The position numbers were made by a program, and so were the translations under genes. A stretch of 64,000 nt of DNA, from the NCBI GenBank assembly GCA_963693365.1, contig CAVNZM010000006.1:9489355-9553354 (forward strand). Reading direction: 5' to 3'. The notes below the pieces were generated by a model, which saw only the letters and a list, made by a program, of their open reading frames with translations, did not search any database and had not been told where the DNA came from. Position 1 is the stretch's first letter, and each line of letters begins with the position of its first letter. Positions 3,222 to 64,000 of this stretch are shown here, in pieces. This stretch comes from Amoebidium appalachense (taxonomy: Eukaryota > Protista > Ichthyosporea).

Positions 3222-3937
3222 CACCTACCCATCAGTGCGCCCTTTGACAGCATGATCTTCCTGGGCACATAGTAGGTCTCCGGCACCCCCCCCACCTCCA
3301 CATACTCCCCTATGGCCTTAGGCACACTTATGCCAGGCAGCTGGGTGTCGTCTGCATCATCCTCCCCCACCCCCCCATAATCCTCCACAGACTCAAAGTG
3401 GGGGTCACCGGGTATGTGCCGCAGCACCGTGCCTGTCGGTGGGTGCCGGAATGCAAGGGGACTCTTTTTGGCCTGTGCGCGTAAAGGTTGGATCATGAGT
3501 CCTGGCATGGCATGGTCGTAACCACGTGTCTACAAATGATGATTTGTGATGGTGAGGGAAAAGAAAGTGCGAAGGGGGGGGGGGGGGGGGGGGGAGGGGG
3601 AGGGGGGGGGGGGGGGGGGGGAGGGGCTGATGGGAGGGAAAAGCAGAAGGGGTGAGGGAGGGGAGGGGAATGGGTGGGGAACGGAAGTAGAGGGAGGGGA
3701 ACGGACGGGATTGGGAGAGGAAAGGGAAGGGGGGAACGGGGGAGGACGGGGAAGGGGCTTGCGAGTGGGCAGAAAAGGGGGAGGAGGAAAAGGGAATGAG
3801 ATGAGAAAGGGCACCCGGGGAGGAGGGGGGGGGGGGGGAAGGAATGGGAGGAAGGGGGGGGGGGGGGGGAGAGGGAAAGGAATGGGAGGGAGGGGGGGGG
3901 GGGGGGGGGATAGTGGGGGTTCTTTACTGCCCACATG

Positions 3938-3978
<41 letters not shown>

Positions 3979-4034
3979 CGCGCTCACACACGCACAGGCG
4001 CTTGTGTGAGTTTTTGTGTGTGTGTGGGGGGGGT

Positions 4035-4069
<35 letters not shown>

Positions 4070-7000
4070 GGGGGGGGAGGGGGAGGGAGGGAGGGGCGTG
4101 TGCGTGCGTCCTTGCGTGTGCGTGTGCATGCGTGTGTGTGTATGTGTGTGCGTGTGTGTCTGCGCACACACACGCTCCTGTGCATGTGTGTGACCATGCA
4201 CAGGTTGATGGGCGAATGGGTATGTGGTTGTGTGTGTGTGAAGGGGGGTTGTGTAGATGGCGAGACGTGAGTGAGCGATTGAGTGTGTGTGTGTGCGCGC
4301 GCGGGCGTGTCCGTGTGAGCATATACTTGATTTGGGCCCAAGGGCCCGGGAGGGGGGGGGGGGGGGGGGGGGGGAGTGTTGCTCACCACCAGGAAGTAGC
4401 GCAAACGAGAATTAGGCACACCAAACTGGCGGGGGGTCAGAAGAAACTCCTGCCACGTGTAGCCACAGCTGCCCAGCACACCCAGCAGGTACTGGTGTGT
4501 GTCTGACACCTGTGTAGTGTATACAGTGAGCGGTGGCGTCATCCACACTATAGGCTACATCCCTGAACCTGCAAATGCACATAGATGGATCATGGGTGCT
4601 TGTAGCTACCGTACCAGTTTCCTTCTACCAGTAATATTAAGCGTGCATAAGCAAAACAGGACAAAGAAGAATTTCCTTTGGTTGTTTTTTGCATACAAAC
4701 ACACCATAGCTCTCCTGACACATATCAACATAGTAGGGGTTGGCCCACCTCGAATCCTTTAACGTTCTCAATGAGGATATACGATGGGGGGTGCTGCATC
4801 TTGGGCAGCATATCCATCAGATACTTAAAGCTCTTGGATCGGGTGTCTTCCGACCCCATCTGCTTGCCTGTGCGTGTGTGGGTGCGTATGTGGATGTGTG
4901 TGCGTGGGGGGAGGGGAAGGGGGGGGGGGGGGGGGGAGGGGAGGGGGGAGTGAGTGAGTGTGGGTGTGTGGGTGTGTGGGTGCGTGCGTGCTTGAGTGGG
5001 AGGGTGTGTGTGCGTGTGTGTGTGGGGGGGAGGGGGGGGGGCGGGGGGGATGGGTGTGGGTGTGCGGCATGAACCCGTGAGTGTGTGTGTGTGTGTAGTG
5101 GTAGTGAAATGGGGGGGGGGGGGGGAGGAGGAGAGGGGGGGGGGGGGGGGAGGGGGGAGGGTATTTGCCCATATACATGTGTGTGCATGTGTGTGTGCGT
5201 GGGCGCGCGTGCACATATGCTGAAGTACAGGGAAACATATGATGAAGTAATACACAGGCTGCATGCGGATGTGTGTGCTTGTTCGTGTGTATGATGTCCC
5301 CCCCCCCCCCCCCCCTCCCCAAACCATTCCCCCCCCCCCCCCCCCCCCCCCCCCCCAACCACCACCACCACCCACCCACCCACACCACCCGCCCTTGCCC
5401 TCCACAAACACATACAGGCATGCACACACATCACACACGCGCTGCTCCCCCTACCATTTCCCCCCCCACCCCCACCACCCCCATCCCTCCCCTCCCCCTC
5501 CTCCCCCCCCCCTGTGCAGCCATACGCAGACCACTCCACCTTCCGCATCCTGCTGTGCTCACCATCATCGCCCATCCACCCTCTGCTCGGACCAACCCCT
5601 TCTCTATTTCCCATCCTCTCTCCATACCCCCACTCCCTCTCCGAAACAATCACCATAGACACTGCCTGCCTCTGTCCTACCCACGTGCATAACCTCCCAC
5701 GTTCACAGCAGGAACACGGCATGACCGACCTTGCCGTGTGTACGGCTGGCACGGTGGAGACATGAAGAATGCATCGGCCTTCATCCTGTCGTACTGCGCT
5801 ATGGGTATGGCCTCGATGTTGCGCTGCAGGCACACCACACGTTACACACCCGCCAATACAAACTGCACCGTATGACCACATGATCATGCCCATTAACACT
5901 CCTTTTCTCCCCGCTCGGCAATACCTAGAACCCTCTCTGTCCCCTTAACTCTCATGATAATTGTCAACTGATATATACAGGATCTTGATAAGACCCCCCT
6001 TCCCTCACCCCCCCCCCCCCCCCCCCCCCGAAAATATCAAAGCATACTTTAATCCTCCCCCCCCCCCCCCCGTAACCACTACACACACAAACGCATGTCT
6101 TATGGCAATCTACCGACATGGCCCCCATTCTTCCCCCTTTCACTATTAAAGGAACCCCCACCGTTCGGAGCGCTACGCCTCCACCGATCTGTCTCCCTCC
6201 CTCCCGTTCACCACCATTAAGCCCCCTCCACCATCACGGATGTATGAGACCACATTAAGAACATGTACGAGATATTGGGTGAGCGTTCACACAAGCACAA
6301 GGAACAGAAAGTTCCTCCTCCCATCCGCCTCCCCCCTGCACAAAAACTACAGACTTCATACCTGATAAAGCTTTGTGTCCTTGAAATTGTGTCGATAAAC
6401 ATCATTTGCCTGCAGAAAACCCAACCAGACCACAGTCATCGGTATGTTTTCCACTTTTCAATGTAGCGGTACTCACACCTGCTTTAGAACATGTGCACAG
6501 GTAGGTGTGGAGTGTGGGGAGAGGGCGGGCGCCCTGGGGTGGTGGTGGTGGTGGGGGGGGGGGGAGGGGGGAAAGGGGGAGGGGGAGGGGGGGGAGGGGG
6601 GGGGATCGAGGTTGGTGGTACAGATATTCTTTTGTTCCGTTGGCCTGGAAGGGGGAGGGGGGGGGGGGGGGGGGGGGAAGGGGGGAAGGGGGGGAAGGGC
6701 AGCACTGAGGTGAGGGGGCCCCAAGTACCAGTATGAGCTTCTATGCCAGACTACCGTCACTGTTTGCATACTTGTTGGGTACAACCTCATACCCGGGGGA
6801 AAGTAATGAATGACCATCCTTTACATCGCTATGCACATTAAACGAAAAACCGGCAAGACGATGGGTCCTACGTTTTGCTATTGGAACCTAGTTCCAAGTG
6901 ATGTGCAAAGACGTCAACAACCAAGCAAGGGCACAGGCCAAGAGAGAGGAATGGACAGGGAGGGTGGTACGCTCTGCGGAGAGAAAGGGCACAGAGGCAG

Positions 7001-7576
7001 GGGGAGGGGGGGGGGGGACTGGAGAGGGGAGGAAAGGGCGGTAGGGCCGGGGGGGGAGGGGGGGGGGGAGGGGAGGGGGGGGGAGGGGGGAGGGGCGGTT
7101 GGCAGAAAGGACGGAGTGAGGGGGGCGGGGAGAAAGCTCACCGAGGTGTTAATTTCAAATGCCCCGACAACACTCCCGGCAGCAGAGCACTGGGAAAAAG
7201 CATGATGCTGTGTAGTGGGAGAGCCTCGTCAGCCAAAGTGAAGGAGAAAAAAAAATTAATAGACGCCCAAGCCTGCGTGCCAATCAATTTGAATAGCTTC
7301 CCGTGGCCGCTTAACGAAAAAACAGTGGTTGAAACCCTTGAGTAATGGAGAGAACCTCCAGGAAAAGGAAAGAAAACGCTACACAGCATGGAGTAGTATG
7401 AAGGGGAACTTGAAAAATAGTAAGATGGACACGGAGGAGGAGAACGCGCGGGGAGGAGCGGGGGGGGGGAAGGGGGGAGAGGGAGAGAGGAGGGGAGGGG
7501 GGAGGGGGGGGGGGGGGGGAGGGGAGGGGCGAGACTGGGGGGGGGGGGGGGAGGGGGGGACGGGGGAGGGGGGGGA

Positions 7577-7644
<68 letters not shown>

Positions 7645-7890
7645 GCGGGAACGGCTTTGGAAGAACTGGTGATGGACATTGATGGGGAGACAGCCAGAAA
7701 ACAAAGGGAGGGAAGGCGGGAAGGATTAAGACACTAAAGGAGTGCCGAATGAACATGGGTGGGGTTGTAGGTGAGGGGAGAAGCTTAGAAGGCTGAAGTG
7801 TGCGCACCCCATGGTGCTGCTTTTGGTGATACTTACAAAGGCACCAATGCCGCTGTAGAACTCCAACGCCCTTAACTGCCTTTCTGCCAT
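1050..7890 (-). CDS. DNMT2: tRNA (cytosine-38-C5) methyltransferase DNMT2/TRDMT1, 11 exons, ~385 aa
   Basis: Exons 7890-7837, 7207-7142, 6409-6362, 5823-5730, 4867-4749, 4509-4387, 3472-3229, 2751-2706, 2297-2240, 1682-1610, 1282-1050. All introns are GT-AG and phase-consistent. Motifs: [59 protein letters not shown]2-diagnostic [35 protein letters not shown]. Confidence 0.95.
2566..2670 (+). repeat. R1 copy 2 (in DNMT2 intron 8)
   Basis: TTTGAATGCGTCATAAAGTACG...ACGGATAACACGATGCAGAGTGCAAACCATAC...GAGTATGCATAATAAGCA...CCTCG followed by a G-run. Confidence 0.8.
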
Positions 7891-8812
7891 TTTTCATCAC
7901 CCTGGGGTTGAAACAAAAAAGAGGAAGACTCGGACCGTTCACGGCGCTCAGCTCTTGGCAAAGCACATGTGTTCTGGTAGGCGCTCCCTGGCTACGTACG
8001 ACTTCGTTCGACTCTAGTCTGGTCAGCTGGTGGTGCACGCCGAACCAATCGATTCTTCCAACATGACGTCACTGGCAGTTGAGCTTCCGGAGAAGTGGCA
8101 CACCACCGTGCAGACCGGCCGTGATACTCACGGCTCTCTCCAGGTACATGTTTAGAGAGCCGTGCACACCACGCCTGCACGTCCATATGAATGCTACCGC
8201 TCTGCACTCAATACGACCTAAACTAGAAGTGTTCGTACATGATATTATTATGCATTGTTGTCGTACCTGTTGTTTGGATACGATATATGACATCGACTCG
8301 AATGTAAATTAGGGGGATCTATGCTTAGGTCTTGGTATACAATCACAGAGAACACCACATTTGCCTATGAAAATCATGAGGTAAATAGAGTGTACGGTGA
8401 TTCCTATAAAAAATGCTATAACTTTTCTTCATCTATTTAACTTGCTTTGATTATCAATCATTGTGCCTCCACAGCTATCGTGCTGTCAGGATTTACAAGA
8501 GTTTCATTTTGTTCTTTTTCATTAAAGCCCCCAGGCTAAACCATTTTCGTTTGCCAATCGATTTATTCGACCAATCACTATATGGAATGCTGCATTCCTG
8601 GAACAGTTATTCAAAAGTGATTGGCTAACGCTTCGGGACCAACTTTGACTCCAGGGTATAAAACCAGATTCTTGACTTAGCCTTGCTCAGACATGCACAT
8701 GCACAATTGCATATGTACCTACAAGAAATCCAGTTCACACTCACTGACGCTGTGACTTGCGTTTTATTTTGCTTATCCATTAAAACAGCGCAAGCATACT
8801 TCGTTTTCGACA

Positions 8813-9962
8813 ATGACGCTGCCCGTTTTTTGGAATATTCTCGCCCTTTCCCTGGCCCTCGCACCAGCCTCGCTGGCCTGCAACCACTTCAGCACGATGG
8901 CTGGAGACGGAACGGTCGTCACAGGCCGAGACATGCAGTTTGCTGCCCCCGAGTCAGGGTTTCCTTTCCGGTTTCGCACACATCCAAAGGGGGTAACGTT
9001 TCATTCACCTACTGACAACGGATGCATTGGAGCTAAGTGGACTATAAAGTACGGCTACTTGACTGCAGACGGAGGTTATATCGATGTGGGTGGGGAGGGC
9101 TTAAATACAGAGGGGCTCCAATGTTCGGCACTCTACTTCCCGAACTACATACGCCTCTTTCATGAACTACACCAAAGAAAAAAAGAATGTTGCCGTTGGC
9201 CAACTGTATTTGTGCGATTGGATTCTCGGCAATCACGCCCGCGTGTCGGACGTAAACGAGACTCTGCCGGACATGATTGTTGTTGGGCTGAAGGTCCCAA
9301 GTCTCGGCATGGTTCCTTTGCACTACGTCGTCACAGACAAAACGGGCGAGAGCATAGTGATTGAGTACACCAAGGGCGGGAAATTGAACATCTGGAAGAA
9401 CTCCGTTGGCGTGTTGACAAACTCTCCCCCATACGACTGGCATATGACCAACAACCTCGGTACATACGCGCCCACCATGTTCCCTCTCAATCCCGAGCCA
9501 GTCAATTATGGGGGTTATAACTTTGGTCCAAGTGGGAATTGGGGTTCCATGGTCGGCCTGCCTGGTAACATGCAAGGGTCGGCCCGGTTTGTCCACCATG
9601 CGGTGTTGCTTCATTTTACACAGGACAAGAAGCTCATTCCCACGGCCGACAAAGCCGTCAACCTCATTGCACACATGTTGAACGTCGGCGACATTGTCAA
9701 CGGAACTCTGGTTGTCACTCCATCCAGGAACAAGGAGGGGGAGCTTGTGTTTAAGTATGAGGGTGACTCATCCCTATTCCAAATTATCTATGATTTGAAC
9801 CAGCAGCATGTGTACATGCGCAGTTACAACAACCAGGTGTGGCAGTTCATCGACATGAATGCACTGGACTTTAAGGAGGGGGCACATGAGGTGGTGTACC
9901 CAATCTACAACGACCTACAGGCACCCAATGTGACTTCGAGGTTTAAGCCGCTTAAGCTGTGA
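8813..9962 (+). pseudogene. Secreted choloylglycine hydrolase / penicillin V acylase family (Ntn hydrolase), frameshifted; ~381 aa if repaired
   Basis: Signal peptide MTLPVFWNILALSLALAPASLA is followed by the N-terminal nucleophile Cys (CNHF). Other motifs: GRDMQF, EGLNTEGL, LHYVVTDKTGESIVIEY, VLTNSPPYDWH, GLPGNMQGSARF. ORFs 8813-9364 and 9162-9962 join in frame (LYFPNYASF) if 4 bp are removed at 9146-9151. No introns. Confidence 0.85.
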
Positions 9963-10993: not shown

Positions 10994-11169
10994 GATCCAC
11001 CACCCCTTCGCTGGCTGGAGGTGGGGCAGGGTTCTTTTGATTTTGAAACGGGGATGGGGGCAGTAGTAAATGGTGGGGGGGGGGGGGGGGGGGGGGGGGG
11101 GAGGACCCACCACCCTGACACTCCGGTCCCAAAAATGACTTAGGGTATCTGACAGTCTGTTAGCTGTTA

Positions 11170-12201
11170 CCTTAGTTGAACACATAGCTAGCGCCCTAAC
11201 TAGCGTAGTGTCGGTGCTGTGGTAGACGGTAATTTCCCTACAGGGCCTGCAACTTGGTCCTCAGGGAACAAACGTGATAAATTATAATTAAAAAAAAAAA
11301 AACTGATAGTCTGTATATATTGGACATGGGGTTGATACCCTGGGCAAAGTGTGTACATATATTTAGGACTGTTATAGGTGTGTTAGTTTAGCTAAGAGCA
11401 TCGTAGCACCCTAGCTAGAGTACTGTCGGTGCTGGGTGGAAGATGGTGTTGTTTTGTACGGGTCTAAGGGAGCAGAGTGCACAGAGGTGTCATGTAAAAC
11501 ACGACTAACACATTGATGAGAGGGCAATCGGAGTTGTTCACGAGACATTGAAAGATTCAAACAACAACTGATTCTTTATTGTGCTCTCGGTTCCTTTTGT
11601 ACTTGCGACTTATCATCTTATCACAACTAAAGAGGGAGAACCAATCGGTTCTATCAGAAGATAGAAAAACACATTCCGACAGAGCATACGCATTCCAACT
11701 TCCGACTTAACTAAAGTTTAGAAACTCTTACTTAAATAAATTAAGTAATTATACATCTAGTCACTATTAACTCACATATATATTTATATTCGTCTCTATA
11801 AAGAAACTCATTTAAATACATATATTTCCTAATAGTCGACACTCTCAAAGTGAAGACACATTGCAACTTGAAACCGAATTCCATATATATCTATTGTCCA
11901 ATCACAACACACATATATTAATAGACAGGAATGCACAACAGGATCTACAGATGTACTCGCTTGCGACTATTGGCGAGCCATCCTTTTGAGAACAAAACTA
12001 AGCCATTTTGAAATAAAGGAAAGACAACGAGTGTAGCTAGCCAATCACGCTACCTCTCAGATAAACAGAGGAGAGCAAACAGAAATAAAATACAATAAGT
12101 TCTTATCAGGCAAGAGAGCCAGGTGTGCACAGATCTACAGATATCTGTGCTCACAGAAACAAGGGAGAGAGAGATACGGGGGGGGGGGGGGGGGGGGGGG
12201 G

Positions 12202-12257
<56 letters not shown>

Positions 12258-12460
12258 AAAGAGAAAAGGGAAAGAGAACCAAGAAGGAAAGCAGACACGA
12301 ATACAAACAAAGCTAAGACACATACATACTTCAAGGCTCTTGCTGTCATACATGGTGACGTATTCCAACAGATGGTAGTTCCCCCTGAGGGCCCCTAGGG
12401 GTACCTCCGGGAACCAATTTAAAACGGGATAAAATAAAAAATGTATATATTGGACATCAA
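11170..12460 (+). repeat. Repeat family R2: two tandem ~200-bp units, the second interrupted by a solo LTR
   Basis: TAGC(G/A)CCCTA..TAG.GTA.TGTCGGTGCTG..TGG.AGA(C/T)GGTA.TT.CCC...AGGGCC...GGGAAC...TGTATATATTGGACAT at ~11170-11330 and again at 11338-11446 + 12371-12460. Confidence 0.7.
11447..12370 (-). mobile_element. Solo LTR, Ty1/copia-like, with 5-bp TSD
   Basis: Termini TGTTG...CAACA; GATGG duplicated at 11442-11446 and 12371-12375; homologous along its whole length to 14915-16014 in inverted orientation. Confidence 0.9.
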
Positions 12461-12632: not shown

Positions 12633-12823
12633 ACACACCTACACACACGCACACAAGCGCGCGCAGCCGAGATGCGCGCGCACGCACACATGCATTGTGT
12701 CGAGCGCTGTAAACTTTGATCCATCTCGGGGACACAAATTTTGGCGTGGCGAAGTACATAGCGGATACATGTACAGAGCGGATCTGTATGTAAGTGAGCA
12801 CACGAACGGCGCGAGTTTACATC

Positions 12824-12838
12824 AACCACCCCCCCCAA
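12824..12838 (-). promoter_or_regulatory. Polypurine tract of the TRIM
   Basis: Minus strand reads ...TTGGGGGGGGTGGTTGA|TGTAAAC immediately before the 3' LTR. Confidence 0.7.
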
Positions 12839-13007
12839 GGGGCGAAGCAGTCTCGGCCTCGAGACCCGATTGGTCCACCCTATCAATCAGAGTCCGTGCT
12901 GCTTGTGGGCCGGTACGCGATGAACGGGGGGCGCCTGTAAATTTATAAAGTATTTGAAACTGGGAAGGAAAGCAGAGACACGGTGGTGCAGTGTAAAAAC
13001 ACCACAC

Positions 13008-13903
13008 TGTCAGACACACAACAACAAAAACACGGAACGATCGGAGCAGTGTACACAACAGACATCAATGTTTAGACACGACTGAACTAAATTTATTTCG
13101 ATCTCGCATATATACTCGAAATTCCCTTAAGTCAAACCTATCTGTGATTTCCGACCAGTCGGAAATCAGGTCTGTCTCTAAAAGAAACCAATCACTAAGA
13201 ACTAATTGCTTTCAGAGAGATCCGGTACGCGGATATGTACATGATAGGGCACAGACACTAGCAAAGATCAACTCGTGTCATTATCGAGGAAGTGAGGGAA
13301 GTTCTAACCTATGACACACTGCAAAGACTCAGACATACCACACTTAACCTTGATGATTGGATAAAGCACGGCAACACATGAAAACTAAAGTAAATTAATG
13401 AAGTCTGATCACACAGGTCAACCCAAGTGTAGCCTAAGTGTGTTACCGTCCAATCAACACTTATTAAGTAACACAAATCTACCTAACATATGTTAGTAGA
13501 AAAGAAATAATGATTATACACATGAAAACAAGGAGTCTTGAAAGAAAAGAAAATAAAGAAGGAGAAAGAGAAAGGAGAAGAGAGCACAGATCAACAAACG
13601 AGATAGCAATAGTATAACTATAACTCTGAGATATTTATGTACCGTGACACGAACATGTACACGTCTCTCTGTAAACAGTTGGACTGGTTAGAATAAGGCA
13701 GAGTACAACTGAATCAAAATAAAGACAGAGAACGGGTAGAAAGGCACACGCGGCCAGGTTGCTTTTACTATGGGCCGACTCAGTCTGTCTCCGACAGACT
13801 TCACTGATGTGATCCCCGTACTGGGACGGCTGTTTTATATAGCCCCCAGGTTTCGGATCAAGGCCCAGGATTGGTTCATCCGCGGCCAGCGCGGGTGGCA
13901 ACA
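13008..13903 (-). mobile_element. Possible second LTR nested inside the TRIM internal region
   Basis: Minus strand TGTTGCC...CTGACA, TATA-like GGCTATATAAAA near 13835, AATAAA near 13095, short patches resembling the 11447-12370 LTR. No TSD found, so boundaries are uncertain. Confidence 0.45.
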
Positions 13904-14300
13904 TGCCATTCGTGATTCTGGTGCGGTCCGAGCCAGTCAGACCTTCGTCCTATTTATGCAAACATCTTATTGGTTCACTTCGTTTACTAAGTGGTATGCA
14001 GCGGTAGAACCATATATGGTTCACCTCTTAGGTAAGATTGATTCCTATTGGTGCGGACATAATTTATGTGATATTCGTGACAAAGCACGAATCGTGTGCT
14101 AGTACATCACATTCTTTAGTAAACATGTACAGTTCATGTGTGCAGTTGTTTACACTTTCCCTGCCAAGTGGGTGGATCCGTGTACACACATATTAATATT
14201 CCGCGATATTGCAACACACGATTAAAGCCGATACAACACGATTACAAGTATACGAGCATATCGGAGATCGATGCTACACGGATCCACCCACTTCAGTCTA

Positions 14301-14317
14301 CCCGCGGTTGGGCGCCA
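14301..14317 (-). promoter_or_regulatory. Primer-binding site, tRNA-Lys type
   Basis: TGGCGCCCAACCGCGGG one base after the 5' LTR; matches the known tRNA-Lys PBS start TGGCGCCCAAC. Confidence 0.85.
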
Positions 14318-14352
14318 ATGTAAACTTTGATCCGTCTCGGGGACACAACATT

Positions 14353-14435
14353 TGGCGTGGCGGATTCAGGATTCGAACCTCAATCCTCGCGGCTGCGAGC
14401 TGCCAGTGGGAGCTCTAACCGCTAAGCCAAAAGGT
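14353..14435 (-). ncRNA. tRNA-derived Pol III cassette (A box + B box) inside the TRIM 5' LTR; not a functional tRNA
   Basis: Minus strand has A box/D-arm TGGCTTAGCGGTTAGAGC (stem GCTT/GAGC), hairpin CTCGC-AGCC-GCGAG, and B box GGTTCGAATCC in an extended stem GATTGAGG/CCTGAATC, ending CGCCA. No anticodon or acceptor stem pairing. Confidence 0.75.
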
Positions 14436-14914
14436 ACGCGCGCTGATGGCTGATCCATCATGCGACTTTTGTTCCATTCGAGTGATCAAGTACATAGCGG
14501 ATACAGAGCGGATCTGTATGTAAGCGAGCACGCGAACGGCGCGAGTTTACAGCGCACATACACACACACACACACATGTACCCGACAAACACACACTTGC
14601 ACTAAACAGATAGTGAGCAGAAAAACAAAAGCGTGACTCGTGTGTACTACGTGCCACGCAGGCACGCACACATGCATCACGCACGTAAGCACACGTGCAC
14701 ACACAGACACATGTGTGCGTGCGCTCTCTCTCGGGCACGCTCTTAACTACCTGATGATATGCTAATCTCTGTGGTGGCTTCCAAAATGATGTGTGTGCAG
14801 CACACACACGCCGTGGGACACATTCTGAATACGATTCTTTTTTTCTCTTACCGATTCCCCTTACCTCCTCCCCCTACCCCTCCCCCCTTCTTCCCCACCA
14901 CCACTATCACCGCC

Positions 14915-16014
<1,100 letters not shown>

Positions 16015-16137
16015 GTTTAGAAGTCCATTTTTGCACGCTCTCGCAACACATTTTCTCGCTGCAATCGAAAATATTCAAATTTGAATACCGATCTGATCTC
16101 TCTCCCGCACATCGTCTGACTGATTGATCACCATCAT

Positions 16138-16487
16138 GTCGGAGAAGCCCGCGTACCTCAACCTCACCCCCTGGAAAGGGGAGGACACCATGGACAAGAA
16201 GTTCGGCAAACGTCTCACCTATTATGAGTGGGAACCCGTCATCTTCCGGTACCTGCGTACCACCATCGCGGCCAGGTTAGTGCCCGTCATCCTTGAAGGC
16301 CCCCGAGTGGGTCGATCCTTCCGATGAGAACGAGTTGCACGGCTATGACATTGAGGAGGTCTACACCGAGGCTTCCAACTTCCTTAAACAGATGTTTACT
16401 CAACTCGTCTCCAATGATGAGCTGTATAACTCTGGTCAAATTCACGATATGATGTGTCACGCACATGTTGTGATGGCTCTGCCCTAG
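16138..16487 (+). pseudogene. Frameshifted copia-type gag N-terminal remnant
   Basis: MSEKPAYLNLTPWKG...TYYEWEPVIFRYLRT...LVPVILEGP continues as EWVDPSDENEL...ASNFLKQMFTQLVS after a one-base shift in the C-run at ~16300. It lies just downstream of the LTR and has a copia gag-like Y..W.....YL pattern. Confidence 0.6.
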
Positions 16488-18698: not shown

Positions 18699-19717
18699 TC
18701 AAGCCACGGGGATTCTCAAAAATGCATCACAGCTAGATGTGCTCCAGCCATTGGGCGGTGCGTACCGATCGACATACTGAGAGAAGTACTGGTCAAAGTA
18801 AGCACACCAGTACGCATTACCATCCGCCGTTTTAACACGTGCTACGCCTAGCAATGGAAATTTGTCGTTATATATCACCTCCTTTGCCTGAATACCACCG
18901 TTGGCCATTGGGTTAAACATAGTCAGTGTTTTGTTGAAGGGAATATCCATCCACGCCTTCACAACATCTTCGGCGGGGGTAATGCCACCAGCAGTATCTG
19001 CGTACTCAAACACGCGGTAATCAAAGTCACCGGGCTGTTCAAATTGTTGGTGGGAATAGAAGCGAACGCCGGTTGCCTTGCGTTCGGCCATTTTCCTTGC
19101 ACACACTTCCGCAATAGGCATCAGCCGCCTGTAAGAAGCAAGACAAAAAAACCGTGGGTAACTTGATTTTACAACCCTTAGCTAGGCTGCATACCTCGTA
19201 AAGGAAATCCGTGTTCCTTTTTTTCTCTGGGTCCCATGATCCGTTATTTGTGTCGTCATTCCTCATTTTTTCTCACAAAAAAAGTAGCTAGCTAGCTACT
19301 CGATGTTTTTACGCACCCAAGCCTTTAGAATATCCCTCCCCCTCCATCATTGAATATTGAACTTACTCACGGTACAAACTCAAAAACGAACCCATTAAAT
19401 ACTGGCACCGTTCTGCACACAAATCACAAAGACAGGGGGAGAGAGCCCTCGGGGGTGAGATGGAGGGAGCAGGAAAAAGTGTCGTGTATCTTGTGTGGAT
19501 GCGTGTGTTAATAGTGAAAGTTTACGGAGGGTGTTAGGTGGAAAGGCAACACCACACTAACGGGGGGGGGGGGAGGGAGGGGAAGATATATCGTATAGAG
19601 AGATATAGAGAGACTCGGAGAGGGAGAGGGACAGGGGAAGAGAGAGAGAGAAGGGTGGGTGAGGGGAAGGGGAGGGCAAGAGACACGGGCGTGTGCAGGG
19701 GAGCGGGTGGGAAGACA

Positions 19718-19965: not shown

Positions 19966-21127
19966 CGCGCACGTGCGCCATGTGACCACGGCAGTGGTGT
20001 AGTTAGTCAAGAAGGAGAACTGAGGGCTTCAGGGGTACTCAAATGCCCTTATTGCCTAACAGGAATCTAGCAACTTACATGGTCCCCGAGTACAGAGAAC
20101 ACAGGCATTTCGCGCGGCAGGGTGAACAGGTTACTTACCACCCGAAGTATGTATGGTCGCCAGCAGTGCCACTGGTATATCTTGTTCTGATCTGCTTCGC
20201 GTTGCACAGTACTTGCATGGTGGCAGCCTCGTTCGTGATGTTGCCAATTGCCAGAAACTTGGGCCGACAGACCCATCTATTCTTGATGGGCAGAAAGTAG
20301 TTGGGCTTGACACCCCCAGACTTCTTGACGCTACACCACTTTTGCACCATTGCCAGGTACTCGCCGCCTTTGAAGGTGGCATGTGCCTGGATGAGCCTGT
20401 CCACGGTAATACCGTACATGCTGGCCACGTCCTCACAGTAATCGGTCTTGTTGGCCGCGTCTTTGGACAGCTCGTGTACGTGTCCGCCAGTCTTGACATT
20501 GCAGTCCTCCTCGGCCCATTTTTGTTCTTGCTCCCAGTTGGGCGGAATACACAACCAACTCAGAAAGTAGGTGGGCGGCTGCTGGCTGGTGTCCTCGCAA
20601 AATTGTTTGACTTGGGCCTTCTGCCAGGGGTTCACATTGATGATATCGTAGATAGGCACACGTGCCAGGCTTGCGAAAAATTGACAGTTGTATTGTGCCG
20701 TGTAAGGTCTATCTGGGGCCATAGGAAGATCCAACAGTTTGCCATTGAAATTACCCTCACACAGTGATACGGCCAGCCCACGCCATTCCGCGGTGGTCGG
20801 GCGCTCCTTCTTCGGAATGCATATCCACTGCACATAGTAAGTGGGTGGGTTAGGCTCCTTGCGCTGGCAAAACTGAGCGATAAAAGTATTGTTTGGGTTT
20901 ACTCTGAGAATGCTATCGACGGCCACCCCATAGTTGTTTGCGATCATCTCGCAGTTCTCGAGCGCCAAGTATTGGTTGCTCGCAGAGACGTTGAGGGTGT
21001 GCAGCGTCCCCTCGTTGTTTGTTCTCTGCATACAAAGCCCCTGGTTCCAGGCCTTCCAGTCTTGTGCAAAGGCTCCACAGGAAAGCAGGGCCAGGGCCCC
21101 AAAATGCATCAGCCATGCATTCATCAT
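18699..21127 (-). CDS. Secreted protein with three Cys-type LysM domains and a C-terminal CAP/SCP domain, 2 exons, ~472 aa
   Basis: Exon 1 21127-20139 (TG|GTAAGT) and exon 2 19128-18699 (TTCTTACAG|G) join as ...TYFGWRLMPIAEVCARKMA. Signal peptide present. Repeats NCEMIANNYGVAVDSILRVNP..WICIP, NCQFFASLARVPIYDIINVNP..WLCIP, YCEDVASMYGITVDRLIQAH..WVCRP. CAP-like FYSH, AEDVVKAWMD, LGVARVKTADGNAYWCAYF. Confidence 0.85.
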
Positions 21128-23101
21128 GTTCAGTGTGAATTAGCTACTTCAGCTACAGCCTACATACGGTAGACAATAATAAACCGCCTGTGATATTGAA
21201 TATCCAAGATGGCATTCACTGCACAAAAAGGCAGTCCGATGGTGTGCTATTATTGTATGTATTTGAGCCTGGAATCCGAGACCAACTAGTTGCCGTGGCT
21301 AGTAAGCATTCTTATGCACTTTTAGTATCGAACTTGACGAGTCACCTAAAACATAAAACGCGTGAATGCTGAAGTGTCCAGCTCGGGTCAAGGGCCAGGC
21401 CCAGAGTGTAGGAGGGTTCCTTTCTGGAAGGCATTCGAAGAAGTGCATACCAGCGATAATACTGATAAAAAGATTTTATCCGGGGACTCCAATCTCAAGG
21501 CCTTGGAGTAGGGTTGCGGAAGAAACGGGCTCAAGGGAGAGACAATCACGAATGTTTGGTACCACGATGCGTAAAGTCAGAGAAGCCCTGTTTTGAACAG
21601 ACACACATCTGAGGAGCTGAACGTCTGTAACTCTGTTTCTTTGTGACTGATGCAAGTTACCCGTCACGTGAGGACTCGCGCCAATTTTTAAACGCTAGAT
21701 CTAGAAGGAATTCAGAACATCCCATTGCATGCCGGCCGGGGTCGGCGAGTAACAAACCAGCGGGGTGATGACTGAGCAGGTGGGTAGACACGTAGGTATC
21801 AGCCCCAGACTGATAACATCAGCTTATACAATGTTCTATCCCAGGAATGCTGTACGCCAGTACATACATATTACCTATATATATTCATGACCGGATGAAG
21901 CAGTGACCTTATCGAGTCTGATTCCCCAGATCTTCGCGTTTTGCGTTCTTAAAACCCTCCAATCATGGCAGCTATGTACATGCATGCCAGTGTGTAAACA
22001 AACGCGACGCATCTACTGATTCACTTGTACACTGTGCCTACAACTGTGGATCTGGTAAGTAGCCCAGTGGGCCTGGGCACCGTGACCGGCTCGAAATTCC
22101 TATTTTTCTTTTTTTTGTATTTATTTTTTATAAAAGCATGCAAGTGTGCACATAAAATTGCATCTACAATCATTATGATAAATGTACTACTACAGTACTG
22201 TAGAATTTGTTGATCTATTACAGGAAACAATATATCAGTCCATTCACTGACGTAGAGACATGCAGCCCACCTGACGGTACGTACGTACTAATACAAGTGT
22301 TCACATGTTGAACACCGTGTACATGTACGCCGTGAACCTCCCCCGCGCTCTCAGTGGTACCCACTAATTTAGCTAGCCTACGGTCCGCCCGCCAAGAAAC
22401 ACTGATTGTTTTTTAGTCAGACTCTACTACTGAGCGTTCCGGCCCGCGTGCACAGGAACCATGGGTACGTACCCTCTCTGGCAGGGCGACTGGTCTCTTG
22501 AAGTATGCATTTTTATTATTGTTGTCATATGCTTTCTCCCCAGCCCCCCCCCCCCCCCCCCCCCCCCCAAACAACAAATCCCTCTCCCCCCTCTCTGCCC
22601 ACTCGCCTCCCCTCCTTCCAACACACACGTATCTGCATGTCACGCCCCTTCCCACTGTACACGCCCGGTACTCCCCCCCCCCTTCCCCTCCCCCCCCCCC
22701 CCCCCCTCCCCCCAGCCCTCCCCCCTCCCCCCCCCCCCCCCCCCCCCCCCCCTCCCCGCCCTCCCCCCTCCGTTTAATAGATACACCCCCCACTGCAGCT
22801 GGCCATGCGCAGTTGGTATATATATCCATGTCCTATCCCATTCCCTACACTCCAAATCTCCCGCCTAGCTAGGTTCCATATCCCTGCTCCGTGAAACCAC
22901 GGTACCCCCCCCACCCCCTCCCTACCTGCAGGTGCCACTTATGCCATAGCATAATTCGTAGTAGAACAGGGAGACTGAGAGGGAGAGGAGGAGGGGTGGG
23001 TGGGTGGGTGGATAGTGGTGGTGGTGGGGGGGGGGGGGGGGAGAAGGGAGAGGGAAAGAGAGAGAGAGAGAAAGAGAGAGAGGCACACACACACACACAG
23101 A

Positions 23102-25499: not shown

Positions 25500-25672
25500 A
25501 GATTTTTTTATTTTATCACGTTTTGTTCCCGGACAGTCTTTGCAGGCCCTCTAGGGAAACTACCGTCTACCACACAGCACCGACAGTACAATAGTTAGGG
25601 TGCTATATATTAGTTCAGCTAAGCTAAACCATCCTTCACAACCTAACTATAAGTACACACTTTTCCTAGGGT
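25500..25672 (-). repeat. Repeat family R2, inverted copy
   Basis: Reverse complement reads CCCTAGGAAAAGTGTGTAC...TAGCACCCTAACTATTGTACTGTCGGTGCTGTGTGGTAGACGGTAGTTTCCCTAGAGGGCCTGCAA...GGGAACAAAACGTGATAAAA, matching 11190-11280 and 11338-11446. Confidence 0.75.
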
Positions 25673-35733: not shown

Positions 35734-38700
35734 CTGGCTGGCTAGGACGTGTGGATTGGAAAGGGGGTTATGGGGAGAAAAGAGTCCGGGAATCACCCGG
35801 ACTTCAAAAGTGAGGAGCAGAGAATATACTATAGGAGAGGGGGGCTCTATGGGGGGGGGGAGGGTTGGGGGGGGGTGCAGAAATGCAGGTACAGGTTTCA
35901 TCAGTGTGAACCTGGCCATGGCTTGCTACTGAACCATGTTGTTGTTTTCCCCAGGTTGAAACCTTGAAATCCGAACTGAGTGTCAAGTCAGCCGATCTAG
36001 ACGAGACCAAATGCGAATGTGCACGCCTTGTAGCATCGTGTGCCGCCAGCGACATTCGAATGGCCGAGCTCCAATCAGCACTAGCGGCTGAACGCGAGTC
36101 AGCCAATCAACAGCAGTCAAGAGCATCTCAGCAAGAGGCTGCACTCAAGTCCCAGCTGGAGAGTCTTCAGGGTGAGTTGACGGCAGCCCATAGCTTGGCC
36201 GAGCAGCTGCAGGCCACCCTCGGCCAGGTGGAGGCACAGCGAAACCAACTCACTCAAGAAACAGCCACCATGAGGCAACATCTGGACACGTATGCAGAAA
36301 CGGAGCACAGACTGAGAGCCGAGCTGGATTGCCAAAACGGGGAGGTGCTTCGACTTACCCAGCATGCGGCATCATTATTATCGTCAATAGAGCAGCTACA
36401 GGCACGCAGCACGGCACAGGGGGAGGAAATTGCCACCCTCACCAGGGCATTGTCTGCAGCAGAGAGCAAGTCAGGACAGCTGCAGGCCGCACTCCAAGCA
36501 GAGCAGGCAGAGTGCCGCAACATTGCGGAGTCCCTCACTGCAGCACGTGCAGACGCATCCATCCTTGCCGACCAGCTGCGGCAACTACAGGAGGAGCATG
36601 AGCAGATATGCAGCACCCTTACCAGCACCACAGCCGAGCTCCATGCCAGCAAGCAGCAGCACACAGGGCTGCTGGAGACCTCCCGGGCTGACCTTGCCCG
36701 GGCACAGCAAGAGCACGAGTCTGTGTCTGCCCTGCTTGCCGACCAGCGTGCTTGCACACAACGGGAGACCACCCAAGCAGATGCCATAGCCGCCGAGCTA
36801 GCAACCACCCGGGAGCTTCTTGTCCAGGCTCAGCAGCATGCCGCCGACACCGAAGCCAAACTAGCTGAGACACAGGCAGACTTCCAGAAGGCCAGTGCAT
36901 CCCTAGAAGCCCGATCAGCCGAAGTTGCCCAATTGCGTGAGCAGCTACAGAGCAGCACGTCCGCAGCCCAGACAGCTGCTGCGGCTGCCCAGGAGCAGTT
37001 GAGTTTGGCCCAGCAGCAGGCAGCATCCAGCGAGAACCGTGCAACGACACTTTCTGCAGAAGTTAAGCAGCTGCAACTGCAGCTTGAGGAGGCAACACAG
37101 GCAGCGGCAGCGGCATCCACAGCCGCAGGGCTTCAGCTCCAGCAACAAGGGCTCCGACTGGCCGAGGCCCAGCAAATGCTACAAACAGCAGAGGCGTCTG
37201 CAGCCACCATGCAGCAGGAGCTGACCCAGGCACGGCAAGCAGCAGCAACAGAGGCCGAGCGGGCAGAAGACCAGGCTGGCATTGCTGCCGATCTACGGCA
37301 CAACCTGGATGCCCTTACCGAGGAATCTGCTGCGGCGGCAGCGGCGGCGCAGCAACAACTGAACGAGGCCAAGCAGGCTGCTGCCCAACACGCCACGGAG
37401 CAGGCTGATCAGTTGGCCCAGCTGCAGCAGCAACTTGCTGCAGCAACCAAGTCGGCAGACACAGCAGCCACAACCGCTCAGCACGAGCTGGATTGTGCCC
37501 TCCAGGCGGCAGCTACATCACAGCACCATGCCAACGAGTGCTTGGCCCAGGCCAACCAGCTACAGCAAAGGCTGCAGGCTGCGAAGGGGGCGGCTGACCT
37601 GGCACAGCAGGAGCTGGTGGCGGCAAGAGCATCAGCGGCAGACACTGGCAAGGAGCTGCATCTGGCCCGAGAAGCCCATGCAGCAGAGATCAAGCGGGCA
37701 GAGGACCTGGCCAGCCTGGCTGCAAACCTGCAGCTGCAGCTGGATGCCCTCAAGGAGGCGGCTGGTGCAACAGCGGCCATGGCGCAGCAACAACTGGACC
37801 ACGCCAAGCAGGCTGCTGCCCAACACGCCAAGGAGCAGGCTGACCAGCTGGCCCAGCTACAGCAACAGCTTCGGGAGGTCCAGCAACAGTTGCAGTTGAC
37901 CGTGGCCGCAGCAGCCACCACCCAGCATGAGCTGACCCAGGCCCAGCAAGCAGCAGTGTCAGAGGCCAAGCGGGCAGACGATCTGGTCAGCCTTGCTGCC
38001 GATCTACGGGAGAAGCTGGATGCCCTCACCGAGGCATCTTCTGTGGCGGCATCAGCGGCGCAGCAACAACTGGACCAGGCCAAGCAGGCTGCTGCCCAAC
38101 ACGCCCAGGAGCAGGCTGACCAGCTGGCCCAGCTGCAGCAGCAACTGGGTGCGGTAGAAGCCACTGCCACAACAGTGCAGCAGGAACTGGCCATAGCAAA
38201 GGCAGCAGCTGTGGAGATGCAGCAGCAGCTGAGCCAAGAGCGGCAATCTGCCGCAGCGGTGCGATTGCAGTCAGAGGCCCAGGCCACTGTGTTGACAGAA
38301 CTGCAGCAACAGCTCCAGCTGGCCAGGGAAAAGGCTGGCACAGCGGCAGCAACTGCCTGGCAAGAGCTTGCCCAGGCCCAGCAAGCGGCAGGGACAGCAG
38401 CTGAGCGTGCTAGCACCTTGGCCAGCCAGGTGGCTGAGCTGCAGGCTAGTATTTCCACCCACCAACAAGAATCGGCGAGTGCACAGGGAGAGCTGGCAGC
38501 CACCAGGCAGGCATTGGCAGCGGCGGAAGATCAAGCCTCTGGGTCCGGCGCCCAGGTGGCAGGCTTGCAGCAGCAACTGCAGGCAGCCCAGGCATCACTG
38601 AAGGGGCTGGAGGCAACTGCAGCCACCCAGCTGCTTGCCAAGCAAAGGTCGCAGCAGCAGATTGAGCAATTGGAGGGCCAACTTCAGCAGGCGGCAGCAC

Positions 38701-41700
38701 GGGCAGGCACCGTAGCCAACAGGGCTGACGAGGCCGACCAGCGGTGCACGGCACTCACCAGCCAGCTGGCTGAGATGTCATCTGCCCTGCAGGCAGCCAC
38801 AGCACTTGCCGACCAGCACAAGCTCCAGCTAGAACAGCAAGAATCAGCCATTGCCACCCTGGTGGCAGCTTGCGACGCTGCAAATAGCCAGGCCCAATCC
38901 TGGGAGGCCAGGGCCATTAAGGCAGAGGACGACATCGAGCAGCTCCAAGCCACAACCAATGAGGAGACGGCACGTGCAACGGACCTTCAGGGGCAGGTGG
39001 CTTCCCTGGTACAGCAATTGGCAGCAGCCCGGGCAGAGGGCCAGCGAGCAGCAGAGCAGAGCGAGGCACGTGTGGGTCTGATCAGGGCGTTGCAGACCCG
39101 GGTGGCCGACATGGAGGAGATGTTGGCCCACGCTGGCCAAGACGCAGACCAGGCCAACACCCGGGCAGAGTCTCTGACCCAGGAGGCTGCCCAGCTGCGG
39201 GACCAGGTGGAGCAGCTGCAGCAGGCCAGCACCACAGAGGCACAGCGTGCAGGCGAGGCCACCACGCAGCTGCATGCTGCACGTGAGCAGTGCCAGAGCT
39301 TGGAGGCACAAGCAACCCAGTTGGGCCACGAGCTGGCAGCCACCCAGAGCAACATGGACAGTGTTCGGCATCAGCTTACCCTGCTACAGGCCGACCATGA
39401 GGCTGTGGCCCAGGCCAGAGATGGGCTGACCCAGCAGCTGGCCGACACCAGCAGGCACCTGCACCGGGCTGAGACTGCACTTGTATCCCTGCAACGTGAC
39501 CACGAGGCCCTTGAACAGCAGCTTGGCCGGGAGCATGCCACTGCCAGCAGCCTGTCAGAGCAGTTGGCCGAGGCCAGAGCTGCTCTGGCCAAGGCTGCCA
39601 CCGTCGGGGCCGATCTTCGGCAGCAGCTGGACCACAGCAGCACCGTGCACCAGGTGCAGCTAGCAGAGGCCCACAGCCAGGCCCATGCTGCAACCCTGCA
39701 GGTGGCTGCATTGGAACAGCAGCTGGCACATGCTATGGCAGACACAGCTGTGGCCCGCCAGGAGCACCTGCAAGCCAAGGAGTTGGCCGGCCAGCTGCAG
39801 GGCACCTTCGATGATACCATGGCCCGGCTGGCTGCCACATCCAAGGAGCTGGACACCACAAAGGCAGAGGCAGCTGCAACAACCGACCGTCTTCTGGCTG
39901 CCCTTTCTGACCTGGAAACCACGCGCCAGACAGTGAGCGCTGGCGCAGCTGCTGCAGAGCGCCTGCAGGCGGAGGTTGACAGCACCCGTCACATGGCCAA
40001 TACTCTAGCCGCTGAACTTGAGAAAGCCAAGGCAGACAGCACCACCCAGCAGGCCACCGCACAGCAACAACTGCAAGACGCAGCAGCCGCATCAGCTGCT
40101 GCCCTCCAGCAGCTGTCCGAGGCAGAGGCCAGGATCTGCGAGCTCACCTCTAAGGCCGATGACATGCAAGGGCTCGTCAACAGCAAGACCCATGAGGCGG
40201 AGGTGCTGGCCCAGCAGCTTAGCCAGGCCCAGGGTGCAGCCGCATCCACGGCACTTGTGCTGGAGGAGGCCAGGGCAGCCAGCCAGCTCGAGACTACACA
40301 ACTGCAGCAACAGCTTCAAGCAGCCACAGACAGGGCGGCGCAGGCCGCTGAAGAGTGTGCCCGGTTGGCTGAGCAACTGGCCACTGCCCAATCCGGTGTG
40401 GCCAAGTCGGAGGCGCTACTAGTGACTCAGCAGCAGCAGGCAGAGGCAGACTGTCAGGCGCTGCGGGCCACAGTGGCCACCCTGCAGGCAGACCTCGACC
40501 AGAGCCGGGAAGAGGCCACACGGGCAGTAGATCATGTACGTGCATTGCAGCAGGCAGCGGCAGCGGCAGAAGGTGAAGTCCAAACACTGCGCATGCGGAT
40601 CACCACTATGGAGGTGGATGCGGCAGCCACAGCATCTGCCCATGAGCAGGCTCTACGTGCGGCTAGGGACGAGACCAGCGCCCTTCATGCGCAACTGCAA
40701 GATTACGCTGCCGAGGTTGAGCAGCTCCGGGGCCAATTGGCTGGGGCACAGACCCAAGAGGAATCTTCCGCAGCCAGGGTGCAGCAGCTCGAGCAGCAAT
40801 TGGCAGACACCACCAGCCAGGCTACAAAGCTGGCCGAGCGGGTTGCAGGGCTGACCAGCCAGCTGGAGGCATCAGCAACCACCATCCAAGCCCTCACCAC
40901 CCAGTGTGCTGACCTGGAGCACCAGCTGCTTGAAGCAAACAGGCTGGCTGCCAGCACCCAATCTCAGCTGGATGAAACCCAGGCACGGGCCAGCAGGGTC
41001 GAAAAGGAACTTGGGGAGATGCGGCTGAAGCTGGAGCAGCAGGTTGGTTGGACGTGGCCCTGGCTGTCGTCTATTCCTGTGCATGTGTCTACTTGGGAAA
41101 CAGAGTGGATTTACGAAAATGCAGCCCCGAGTTCTATTAAGTCGGGATAGATTTATGGATATGTGTACTTTTAGCATAGAGAAAAAGGGTTCGAATGCTT
41201 TGGGTTTTAGTAAATGTACATCAGTGTACTTTGTAGGTAGTTACCGTTTTCTACTATAGCATAAGGGCATTGTGTGCATGTCGTTCCATATATATGTGAT
41301 CGTATATACTATAAAGTTTTCTCCCCTGTGACCACATGTTGTAAAATGTTCCTTTCCTGGCGCAATAAACTGAAATTGAGACATTTTGGTCACCTGGGTG
41401 GGTGCACTTGTCCCCTGTGCACACAAACTCTTTCGCAAACACCCTGACTAGTTTAAGTGCCTGGGGGGTTGGTTATCAGAGGTGCTCTCTAAATCGAGTG
41501 CGAGATTGGTGTTCGTTTATCCACGGATGTGTGGCAATTAGCCTAGGGGGGAAGCATAAAGGGGCAAAGGAAACGAAGGAGGGGGGGCTCGGGGGATTAA
41601 AACCACCGATAACATGTGGCAACTTGTGTTAGATGTCTTTATGCAGGCAGCATGACTAACTAGTACTTGATCACTCTCAGGTCAAAATGGTCGATGAGCT

Positions 41701-52036: not shown

Positions 52037-63883
<11,847 letters not shown>

Positions 63884-64000
63884 CTGGAGCAGTGGGGGGG
63901 TTCAATTCAATAGACGACACACAAGGAAAAGACTGCATGCCGAGGGGATTTTTACATGTATGATGCAATATATGTAAGGTAGTTGAAAGCAGGGGGGTAA

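What the first reader, a model, noticed from the sequence alone, without database searches (positions are those of the whole stretch)
12704..14555. TRIM retroelement with a tRNA-derived Pol III promoter in only one of its two LTRs
Seen: a complete miniature LTR element (TGTAAAC...GTTTACA ends, GCGC TSD, tRNA-Lys PBS, PPT, no ORF). The 5' LTR has an extra 125 bp (14363-14487) containing an A box/D-arm, a B box/T-arm and extra hairpins, pointing towards the PBS. The 3' LTR lacks exactly this block. Established: Cassandra TRIMs carry 5S sequence, and Helenus TRIMs of animals, fungi and plants carry tRNA-like sequence in their LTRs; as I recall, animal Helenus make 4-bp TSDs. Inference: a Pol III-driven retroelement in a lineage where I know of no report. 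LTRs are identical at insertion, so the asymmetry records either gain of the cassette (the proposed SINE-into-LTR origin) or its loss. This is the best candidate for a novel system in the window.
Basis: partly seen in the sequence, partly recalled or inferred. Interest (0 to 1): 0.8.

Follow-up and report, generated by a model that had tools for sequence, protein, structure and literature searches.

The report
Damaged Helenus-type tRNA-promoter mini-retrotransposon
A small gene-less jumping element carries a tRNA look-alike, likely an RNA polymerase III promoter, in its end repeat; other copies in public assemblies keep it, so this copy likely lost it from one end, making it a further example of the known Helenus kind and not a new system.

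Summary
The LTR pair (12708-12821, 14319-14551, minus strand), GCGC flanks, tRNA-Lys PBS, PPT and the 125-bp A/B-box block in the 5' LTR only are real.

The asymmetry is most likely a private deletion from the 3' LTR. In 4 of 4 public DNA assemblies laid on it, the block-less junction has only this locus's own depth, while the LTR on either side is 11-42 times deeper. Other copies continue into the block. The block has no TSD or tail, and its edge cuts the tRNA-like 3' end, so it is not a SINE caught inserting.

The element is not a complete 1.85-kb TRIM. About 1.36 kb of the interior (12936-14291) is a truncated, very high-copy LTR-like repeat holding a solo LTR. The native element is estimated at 0.6-0.75 kb.

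Architecture, PBS and 4-bp TSD match the animal (Gypsy-type) Helenus TRIMs of Kojima 2024. The host is probably a non-animal opisthokont, unidentified. This scan already noted Helenus-like elements in at least 9 other genomes.

One testable idea: the only T4 run in the native parts lies at the A-box start and could set a Cassandra-like short R region.

Verdict: new member of a known kind; this copy is likely dead.

The parts
12704..12707 (.). Left copy of the 4-bp target-site duplication GCGC
   Evidence: chance match about 3% given the GC/CA-rich flanks
12708..12821 (-). 3' LTR (114 bp) lacking the 125-bp block between 12751 and 12752, with a 6-nt duplication near 12770
   Evidence: alignment; the junction is at this locus's own depth in 4 of 4 runs
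12822..12836 (-). Polypurine tract (eight G, then TGGTTGA) abutting the 3' LTR
   Evidence: 3 listed contigs from other copies bridge the LTR-PPT border (records 19, 28, 29)
12822..12935 (-). Native 3' internal segment of the TRIM; 12829-12915 is shared with a few other copies
   Evidence: depth 3-7 times the locus's own; records 4-6, 14, 15, 19, 20, 30, 31
12936..14279 (-). Nested, very high-copy LTR-like repeat ('LTR-B'). One TGTAAA terminus at 12936; truncated at 14279. Strand is inferred from weak likeness to the 3' end of the flanking LTR family
   Evidence: depth about 600-2,200 times single-copy at 12978-12988; loose ends before 12948 show the shared terminus with mixed flanks; score 61 against a maximum of 54 in 200 shuffles
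13670..14154 (-). Solo LTR ('LTR-C', 485 bp, TGTAAACA...TGTTTACA) inside LTR-B. Imperfect 5-bp TSD CTCTC/CTTTC; three CCAAT boxes and a TATA box on the minus strand; elsewhere followed by a TGGCGACC PBS-like site
   Evidence: empty-site joint 13669-14167 in 4 of 4 runs; loose ends before 13670 in X3 and X14
14280..14291 (.). 12-nt fold-back filler (inverted copy of about 14168-14179) at the broken right end of the nested repeat
   Evidence: other copies continue differently behind 14279 (loose ends, 15 contigs in X1)
14292..14318 (-). Native 5' internal segment with the tRNA-Lys(CTT)-type PBS TGGCGCCCAAC (14317-14307)
   Evidence: the same 27 nt seen next to another LTR copy (X6 loose end before 12708); PBS type per Kojima Fig. 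S2
14319..14551 (-). 5' LTR (233 bp), the family-typical full-length form
14363..14487 (-). 125-bp block missing from the 3' LTR: about 55 bp of upstream LTR, a T4 run (14432-14429), A box/D-arm (from 14429), degenerate middle, B box/T-arm (14379-14369) and the first bases of the 3' acceptor-like strand
14552..14555 (.). Right copy of the TSD GCGC

Best explanation
This is one damaged and likely dead copy of a modest family of Helenus-type TRIMs whose 233-bp LTR normally carries a degenerate tRNA-like A/B-box block, likely a Pol III promoter, and whose 3' LTR here likely lost that block after insertion. An intact member (estimated 0.6-0.75 kb) would be transcribed from just upstream of the A box of the 5' LTR, through U5, PBS, a short interior, PPT and U3. 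It would stop at the T4 run at the start of the A box in the 3' LTR, leaving a short R region as described for Cassandra (inferred). A Gypsy-like helper would supply RT and integrase, priming on tRNA-Lys and making 4-bp TSDs (inferred from Kojima 2024; no helper found). After insertion this copy likely received a high-copy LTR with its own nested solo LTR, with breakage at one end. It also lost 125 bp from the 3' LTR, including the predicted R region and terminator. The nested DNA has nine T4+ runs on the sense strand, so the copy would not be expected to replicate.
For: Shown: at the block-less junction (bin 12758-12768) depth is 28.6/22.7/6.4/15.5 in X1/X2/X3/X6. That equals the depth of each run's own locus contig, against 69-731 (U5) and 167-1,082 (U3) beside it. 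Loose ends behind 12751 read as the block's first 30 bases in X2, X3 and X6; before 12772 they read as its end in X1. Depth runs across the block in the 5' LTR without a dip in X1 (575/604/797/594) and X6 (294/349/301/485). No 14362-14488 joint is among the 15 of 16 joints shown. Other 3' LTRs with this PPT exist (3 listed contigs), so they cannot share the block-less junction. The block has no TSD, tail or microhomology, and its edge falls inside the tRNA-like 3' strand. The interior is hundreds to thousands of times deeper than single copy, while its left junction (12923-12944) is near single-copy depth. It meets Kojima's motifs TRGCY, YGG and GGTTC, has the same PBS string as 61 places in his supplement, has an LTR length within his range, and has a 4-bp TSD as in animal families. 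The only T4+ run in the non-nested parts is 14429-14432.
Against: No single listed contig spans block plus PPT, so 3' LTRs with the block are inferred from depth, not seen. Contig depth is not a copy number, and the tables were cut (24 of 63 loose ends and 32 of 230 pieces shown; 24 of 322 loose ends). Two of the three listed loose-end consensuses before 12772 are mixed (agreement 0.70 and 0.68), so some relatives differ upstream. X3 shows uneven depth over the 5' LTR (62/87/433/210). The four DNA runs are at most 3 samples of 2 studies, and one may be the window's source. The tRNA match is below Rfam's threshold. A Pol III transcript would have to read through the same T4 in the 5' LTR. No helper element was found. 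The nested repeat has no TSD.
Confidence: 0.8

Rival explanations
1. The two LTRs belong to two neighbouring copies of the same family, joined by a deletion through the nested repeat. The 1.85-kb unit would then be a chimera, not one insertion; the block loss is still private to the left LTR.
For: The nested repeat is broken at 14279 with fold-back filler and no TSD. The LTR-LTR difference (5 of 108) is no smaller than differences to other copies (3-4 letters in 44-51 bp). GCGC is common in the left flank (7 times in 104 bp).
Against: GCGC sits exactly at both termini (about 3% by chance). The two native internal pieces add up to 141 bp, close to the roughly 150-260 bp inferred from other copies' contigs.
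Confidence: 0.12
2. Gain: a tRNA-derived SINE or tRNA fragment inserted into the 5' LTR of a block-less TRIM, the origin step proposed for Helenus and Cassandra, caught before it was copied to both LTRs.
For: The asymmetry itself; Kojima 2024 proposes such an origin.
Against: Block-carrying LTRs are many and the block-less junction is single-copy in 4 of 4 runs. There is no TSD or tail. The block starts 55 bp upstream of the tRNA-like part and ends inside its 3' strand. One relative that shares the block also shares U3 (record 23), which suggests an LTR subfamily and not a free SINE.
Confidence: 0.04
3. The tRNA-like block is a passenger. The family is transcribed by Pol II or by read-through, and the A/B boxes no longer act as a promoter.
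For: Acceptor and anticodon arms are broken and the Rfam score is below threshold. T4 at tRNA positions 5-8 could abort Pol III. Kojima states that Helenus promoters are not experimentally validated. One relative appears to skip 14340-14377, which includes most of the B box (X1 joint 14339-14378, letters between not known).
Against: D-stem, A box and B box are intact while the rest has decayed. The LTR has no CCAAT or TATA match to the patterns scanned, unlike nested LTR-C. The B-box side is 97-100% uniform among the listed loose ends.
Confidence: 0.2
4. Family-wide asymmetry: the element has a replication route that regenerates a block-less 3' LTR each cycle.
For: No listed contig shows a 3' LTR with the block directly.
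Against: The PPT-side internal segment has 3-7 times single-copy depth, but the block-less junction has 1 times. Standard reverse transcription makes both LTRs identical (established knowledge).
Confidence: 0.03

Closest known systems
Helenus (TRIMp3), Kojima 2024, Biology 13:119, PMC10886601 (main text parts 1-5 of 6; supplement parts 1, 5, 10, 11 of 11 and a term search)
   Same: Non-coding LTR-PBS-PPT-LTR layout. Degenerate tRNA-like A/B boxes in the LTR, sense towards the PBS. LTR of 233 bp lies within his 104-323 bp. TGGCGCCCAAC Lys PBS and 4-bp TSD as in coelacanth, bivalve and wasp families. More LTR than internal copies.
   Different: The host is probably outside his list (rust and agaric fungi, six animal phyla, Selaginella). 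This copy lacks the block in the 3' LTR and holds 1.36 kb of nested repeat. No sequence comparison with his consensus set was computed.
Cassandra TRIMs (Kalendar 2020, PMC7215508, passages only; Kalendar 2008 not held, known through Kojima's description)
   Same: Small-RNA-derived Pol III promoter in the LTRs of a TRIM. Transcript said to start in one LTR and stop in the other with an 18-nt terminal repeat, as is inferred here from the T4 position.
   Different: 5S-derived type 1 promoter, tRNA-iMet PBS, plants, transcription shown. Here tRNA-derived, Lys PBS, transcription untested.
tRNA-derived SINEs (SINE2)
   Same: A and B boxes in a degenerate tRNA head.
   Different: No tail, no TSD around the block, embedded in an LTR with PBS and PPT.

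Membership tests
Helenus (TRIMp3) | Two LTRs with PBS and PPT between them | tested here: met
Helenus (TRIMp3) | tRNA-like sequence in the LTR with TRGCY, YGG and GGTTC motifs | tested here: met
   motifs; weak Rfam score (15.2 bits)
Helenus (TRIMp3) | tRNA-like block present in both LTRs of family members | tested here: inconclusive
   Absent from this copy's 3' LTR. Depth and loose ends show it is the norm and the loss is single-copy, but no listed contig spans block and PPT
Helenus (TRIMp3) | Short, non-coding element (311-1,263 bp reported) | tested here: inconclusive
   This copy is 1,844 bp because of nested DNA. Native size is estimated at 0.6-0.75 kb from contig lengths. No Pfam match in the 2 ORFs scanned
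Helenus (TRIMp3) | 4-5 bp TSD | tested here: met
   GCGC at both ends, one insertion only, about 3% by chance
Helenus (TRIMp3) | Multi-copy family | tested here: met
   LTR depth 11-42 times the locus's own in 4 of 4 runs; a rough guide only
Helenus (TRIMp3) | Pol III transcription from the block | not testable with these tools
   Only contigs were available; also unvalidated for the published families
Helenus (TRIMp3) | Autonomous Gypsy or Copia partner with matching PBS | not testable with these tools
   No genome held; exact-pattern scans of public contigs were empty
Cassandra / Ajax | 5S rRNA-derived boxes in the LTR | tested here: not met
   No 5S match in Rfam scans
SINE2 insertion | TSD and 3' tail bounding the tRNA head | tested here: not met
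   junctions
Retrozyme (ribozyme-bearing LTR element) | Self-cleaving ribozyme in the LTR | tested here: not met
   Rfam at E up to 10 on 14290-14551 lists only tRNA; a degenerate ribozyme is not excluded

The most novel reading that the evidence does not exclude
A Gypsy-type (Lys PBS, 4-bp TSD) Helenus family in a unicellular relative of animals, whose single T4 run at the start of the A box is the Pol III terminator. It would set an R region of only 10-20 nt and place the whole A/B promoter in U5. T3-T4 runs at the same place are visible by eye in several animal Helenus consensuses, so this could be the general, undescribed transcription rule of the group.
Probability: 0.25. Interest if true: 0.5.

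Novelty: new member of a known kind. Interest (0 to 1): 0.27.

Why it matters
Helenus was described in 2024 from bioinformatics only. A family with animal-type hallmarks in what appears to be a non-animal opisthokont would widen its range and bear on whether such elements arose once or many times. The T4 position gives a concrete prediction of transcript ends that RACE can test.

Tried and rejected
No whole genome is held for this window, so copies could not be collected directly.

No second copy of the LTR or of the A+B box pattern lies elsewhere in the window.

Expression: no RNA holder is listed on record. One run guessed to be RNA (X14) has a contig over 14292-14537 at depth 8 and much higher depth over part of LTR-C. 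Contigs show no strand, start or level, so this is not used as evidence.

Exact-pattern scans found nothing in metagenome contigs or viral contigs.

Host identification: two homolog searches were blank. The CBAH protein gave 35 hits at 43% identity or less, the named ones bacterial. A CSC1 exon gave hits at 62% or less. Of 19 of these looked up, 7 carried an organism name: 6 fungi and 1 choanoflagellate, no animal or land plant. The LysM protein's nearest Atlas clusters were fungal but scored under 0.9. An ichthyosporean host is my guess and no call shows it. Searches under that guess listed no paper whose title or abstract start concerns TRIMs in that group (listings, plus passages of one preprint).

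The gag-like reading of 16136-16487 got no Pfam or Atlas support.

Ribozyme in the LTR, a lead from earlier notes: no Rfam match.

Functional tRNA gene: rejected (the acceptor stem does not pair).

The miRNA hits come from microsatellites and are far below gathering scores.

Full report
1. Observation. The stretch holds two direct repeats beginning TGTAAAC and ending GTTTACA, at 12708-12821 and 14319-14551. The element reads on the minus strand. The right repeat is followed by one T and TGGCGCCCAAC (14317-14307), the tRNA-Lys(CTT)-type PBS listed for many animal Helenus families. The left repeat is preceded by eight G and TGGTTGA. GCGC flanks both ends; from the local flanks a 4-mer match has about 3% chance. 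The LTRs differ by 5 substitutions in 108 aligned bases, a 6-nt duplication in the left one, and the 125-bp block 14363-14487.

The block carries an intact D-arm/A box (from 14429) and T-loop/B box (14379-14369), with broken acceptor and anticodon arms. ARAGORN finds nothing. Rfam gives tRNA only at 15.2 bits, E 1.6, on the narrow stretch and not at all on 2.7 kb. The A+B pattern appears once in 64 kb and in 6 of 200,000 simulated LTRs. The 141-nt region folds at z = -2.15, and a window shifted towards the PBS at z = -1.41: weak.

2. Gain or loss. No genome was available, so I used public assemblies. Twenty-one runs were listed and I laid 5 of them. On the whole element (X1, X3, X6, X14) depth over the four bins of the 5' LTR was 575/604/797/594 in X1 and 294/349/301/485 in X6, with no dip at the block. 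X3 was uneven (62/87/433/210). No joint skipping the block was among the 15 of 16 joints shown.

On the 3' LTR alone (X1, X2, X3, X6, at most 3 samples of 2 studies, one possibly the window's source) the bin across the block-less side of the junction had 28.6, 22.7, 6.4 and 15.5. These are exactly the depths of each run's contig of this locus. U5 reached 633, 731, 69 and 275, and U3 reached 1,082, 943, 167 and 497. Loose ends behind 12751 read as the first 30 bases of the block in X2, X3 and X6. Before 12772 they read as its last bases in X1, while the X2 and X6 consensuses there are mixed (0.70, 0.68). Three listed contigs of other copies bridge LTR and PPT but stop short of the block.

The block is therefore the family norm. 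Other 3' LTRs exist and do not share the block-less junction, and the loss appears private to this LTR. The same block-less locus is present in runs labelled organisms A, B and C, so it predates their split. The junctions also argue against an insertion: no TSD, no tail, no microhomology, a start 55 bp upstream of the tRNA-like part, and an end inside its 3' strand. Limits: contig depth is not a copy number, the tables were cut (24 of 63 loose ends and 32 of 230 pieces shown), and no contig shows block and PPT together.

3. The interior is mostly foreign. From about 12967 to 14279 depth is up to 4e5 in X1 against 29 for single copy. This repeat begins with its own TGTAAA terminus at 12936, which other copies share with mixed flanks. 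It breaks off at 14279, where other copies continue differently, and is joined to the TRIM's own PBS segment (14292-14318, also seen beside another LTR copy in X6) by a 12-nt inverted copy of 14168-14179.

Inside it lies a 485-bp solo LTR (13670-14154). It has an imperfect 5-bp TSD, CCAAT and TATA boxes on the minus strand, an empty-site joint in 4 of 4 runs, and a different PBS-like site beside other copies. The TRIM's own 3' internal segment (12829-12915) is shared by a few copies, whose listed contigs run on for 81-187 unlike bases. I infer a native interior of about 150-260 bp and a native element of 0.6-0.75 kb.

4. How it likely works. Shown: layout, boxes, PBS, PPT, TSD, multi-copy LTR with the block. 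Inferred: TFIIIC binds the A/B boxes of the 5' LTR and Pol III starts shortly upstream of them. The RNA covers U5, PBS, interior, PPT and U3. The only run of four or more T on the sense strand of the non-nested parts is 14432-14429, at tRNA positions 5-8. Stopping there in the 3' LTR would leave a 10-20 nt R region, like the 18-nt repeat Kojima describes for Cassandra. The difficulty is that the same T4 must be read through in the 5' LTR. A Gypsy-like helper is inferred from the Lys PBS and 4-bp TSD; none was found. In this copy the deletion removes the predicted R region and terminator of the 3' LTR, and the nested DNA adds nine T4+ runs, so it is likely dead.

5. Comparison. Kojima 2024 (PMC10886601; main text parts 1-5 of 6, supplement parts 1, 5, 10, 11 of 11 and a term search) defines Helenus as TRIMs with tRNA-like LTRs, 311-1,263 bp, with 4-bp TSDs and often a Lys PBS in animals. 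The family here fits on every feature I could test at family level; both-LTR presence and native length are inferred. His table lists rust and agaric fungi, animals and Selaginella. Unread supplement parts could hold a closer consensus, and no alignment to his set was run. Searches for later Helenus papers listed three others; I read passages of one (PMC12859917), which only cites the 2024 paper, and saw the other two as listings. For Cassandra I read passages of PMC7215508.

The host is unresolved. Named relatives of a window CSC1 exon are fungi and a choanoflagellate at low identity, which fits a non-animal opisthokont; an ichthyosporean is my untested guess. Earlier notes of this scan report Helenus-like elements in at least 9 genomes, including a diatom and an early-diverging fungus (unchecked), so a wider range is no longer surprising. 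No look-alike of this LTR was noted before.

6. Verdict. A real element, a new family of a known kind, in a probably unreported lineage. The one-LTR asymmetry is best read as ordinary deletion. Interest 0.27. The boldest open reading, a terminator at the A-box start as a general rule for Gypsy-type Helenus, has probability about 0.25.

Noticed in passing
window 11447-12369 (-) and 14915-16014 (+): Two copies of a roughly 0.9-1.1 kb TGTTG...CAACA LTR (about 85% identical, containing microsatellites) flank the TRIM in inverted orientation. The left one is a solo LTR with a perfect 5-bp TSD (CCATC). The right one is followed by GTTTAGAAGTCC and a broken ORF.
   Followed up: partly
window 16015-16487 (+): After the right LTR, a site that may pair with the anticodon arm of tRNA-Arg(TCT) (recalled, untested; half-tRNA priming as in Copia) and two short ORF pieces that look gag-like by eye. 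No Pfam or Atlas support.
   Followed up: partly
window 12936-14279: A repeat family at roughly a thousand times single-copy depth appears to have amplified with a solo LTR of another family (13670-14154) inside it; empty-site versions are rare. Possibly promoter capture. Three LTR types here share TGTAAA...TTTACA-type ends.
   Followed up: partly
window 14369-14547, records 8, 23, 24: Related LTRs share U3 and the tRNA-like block but differ right after the B box, suggesting several Helenus-like subfamilies in this genome.
   Followed up: no
window 8800-9962 (+): Apparently intronless, frameshifted choloylglycine-hydrolase-family gene whose named relatives are bacterial; possible horizontal transfer.
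   Followed up: partly
window 11167-11447 and 25506-25672: Another repeat, into which the left solo LTR seems to have inserted.
   Followed up: no
window 18699-19181 (-), 20135-21139 (-), about 3500-8000 (-), 54500-63900 (-), 35910-41150 (+): CAP-domain and LysM-domain genes, DNMT2-like exons (by eye), a CSC1/OSCA channel gene with microsatellite-rich introns, and a very long coiled-coil-like ORF.
   Followed up: no
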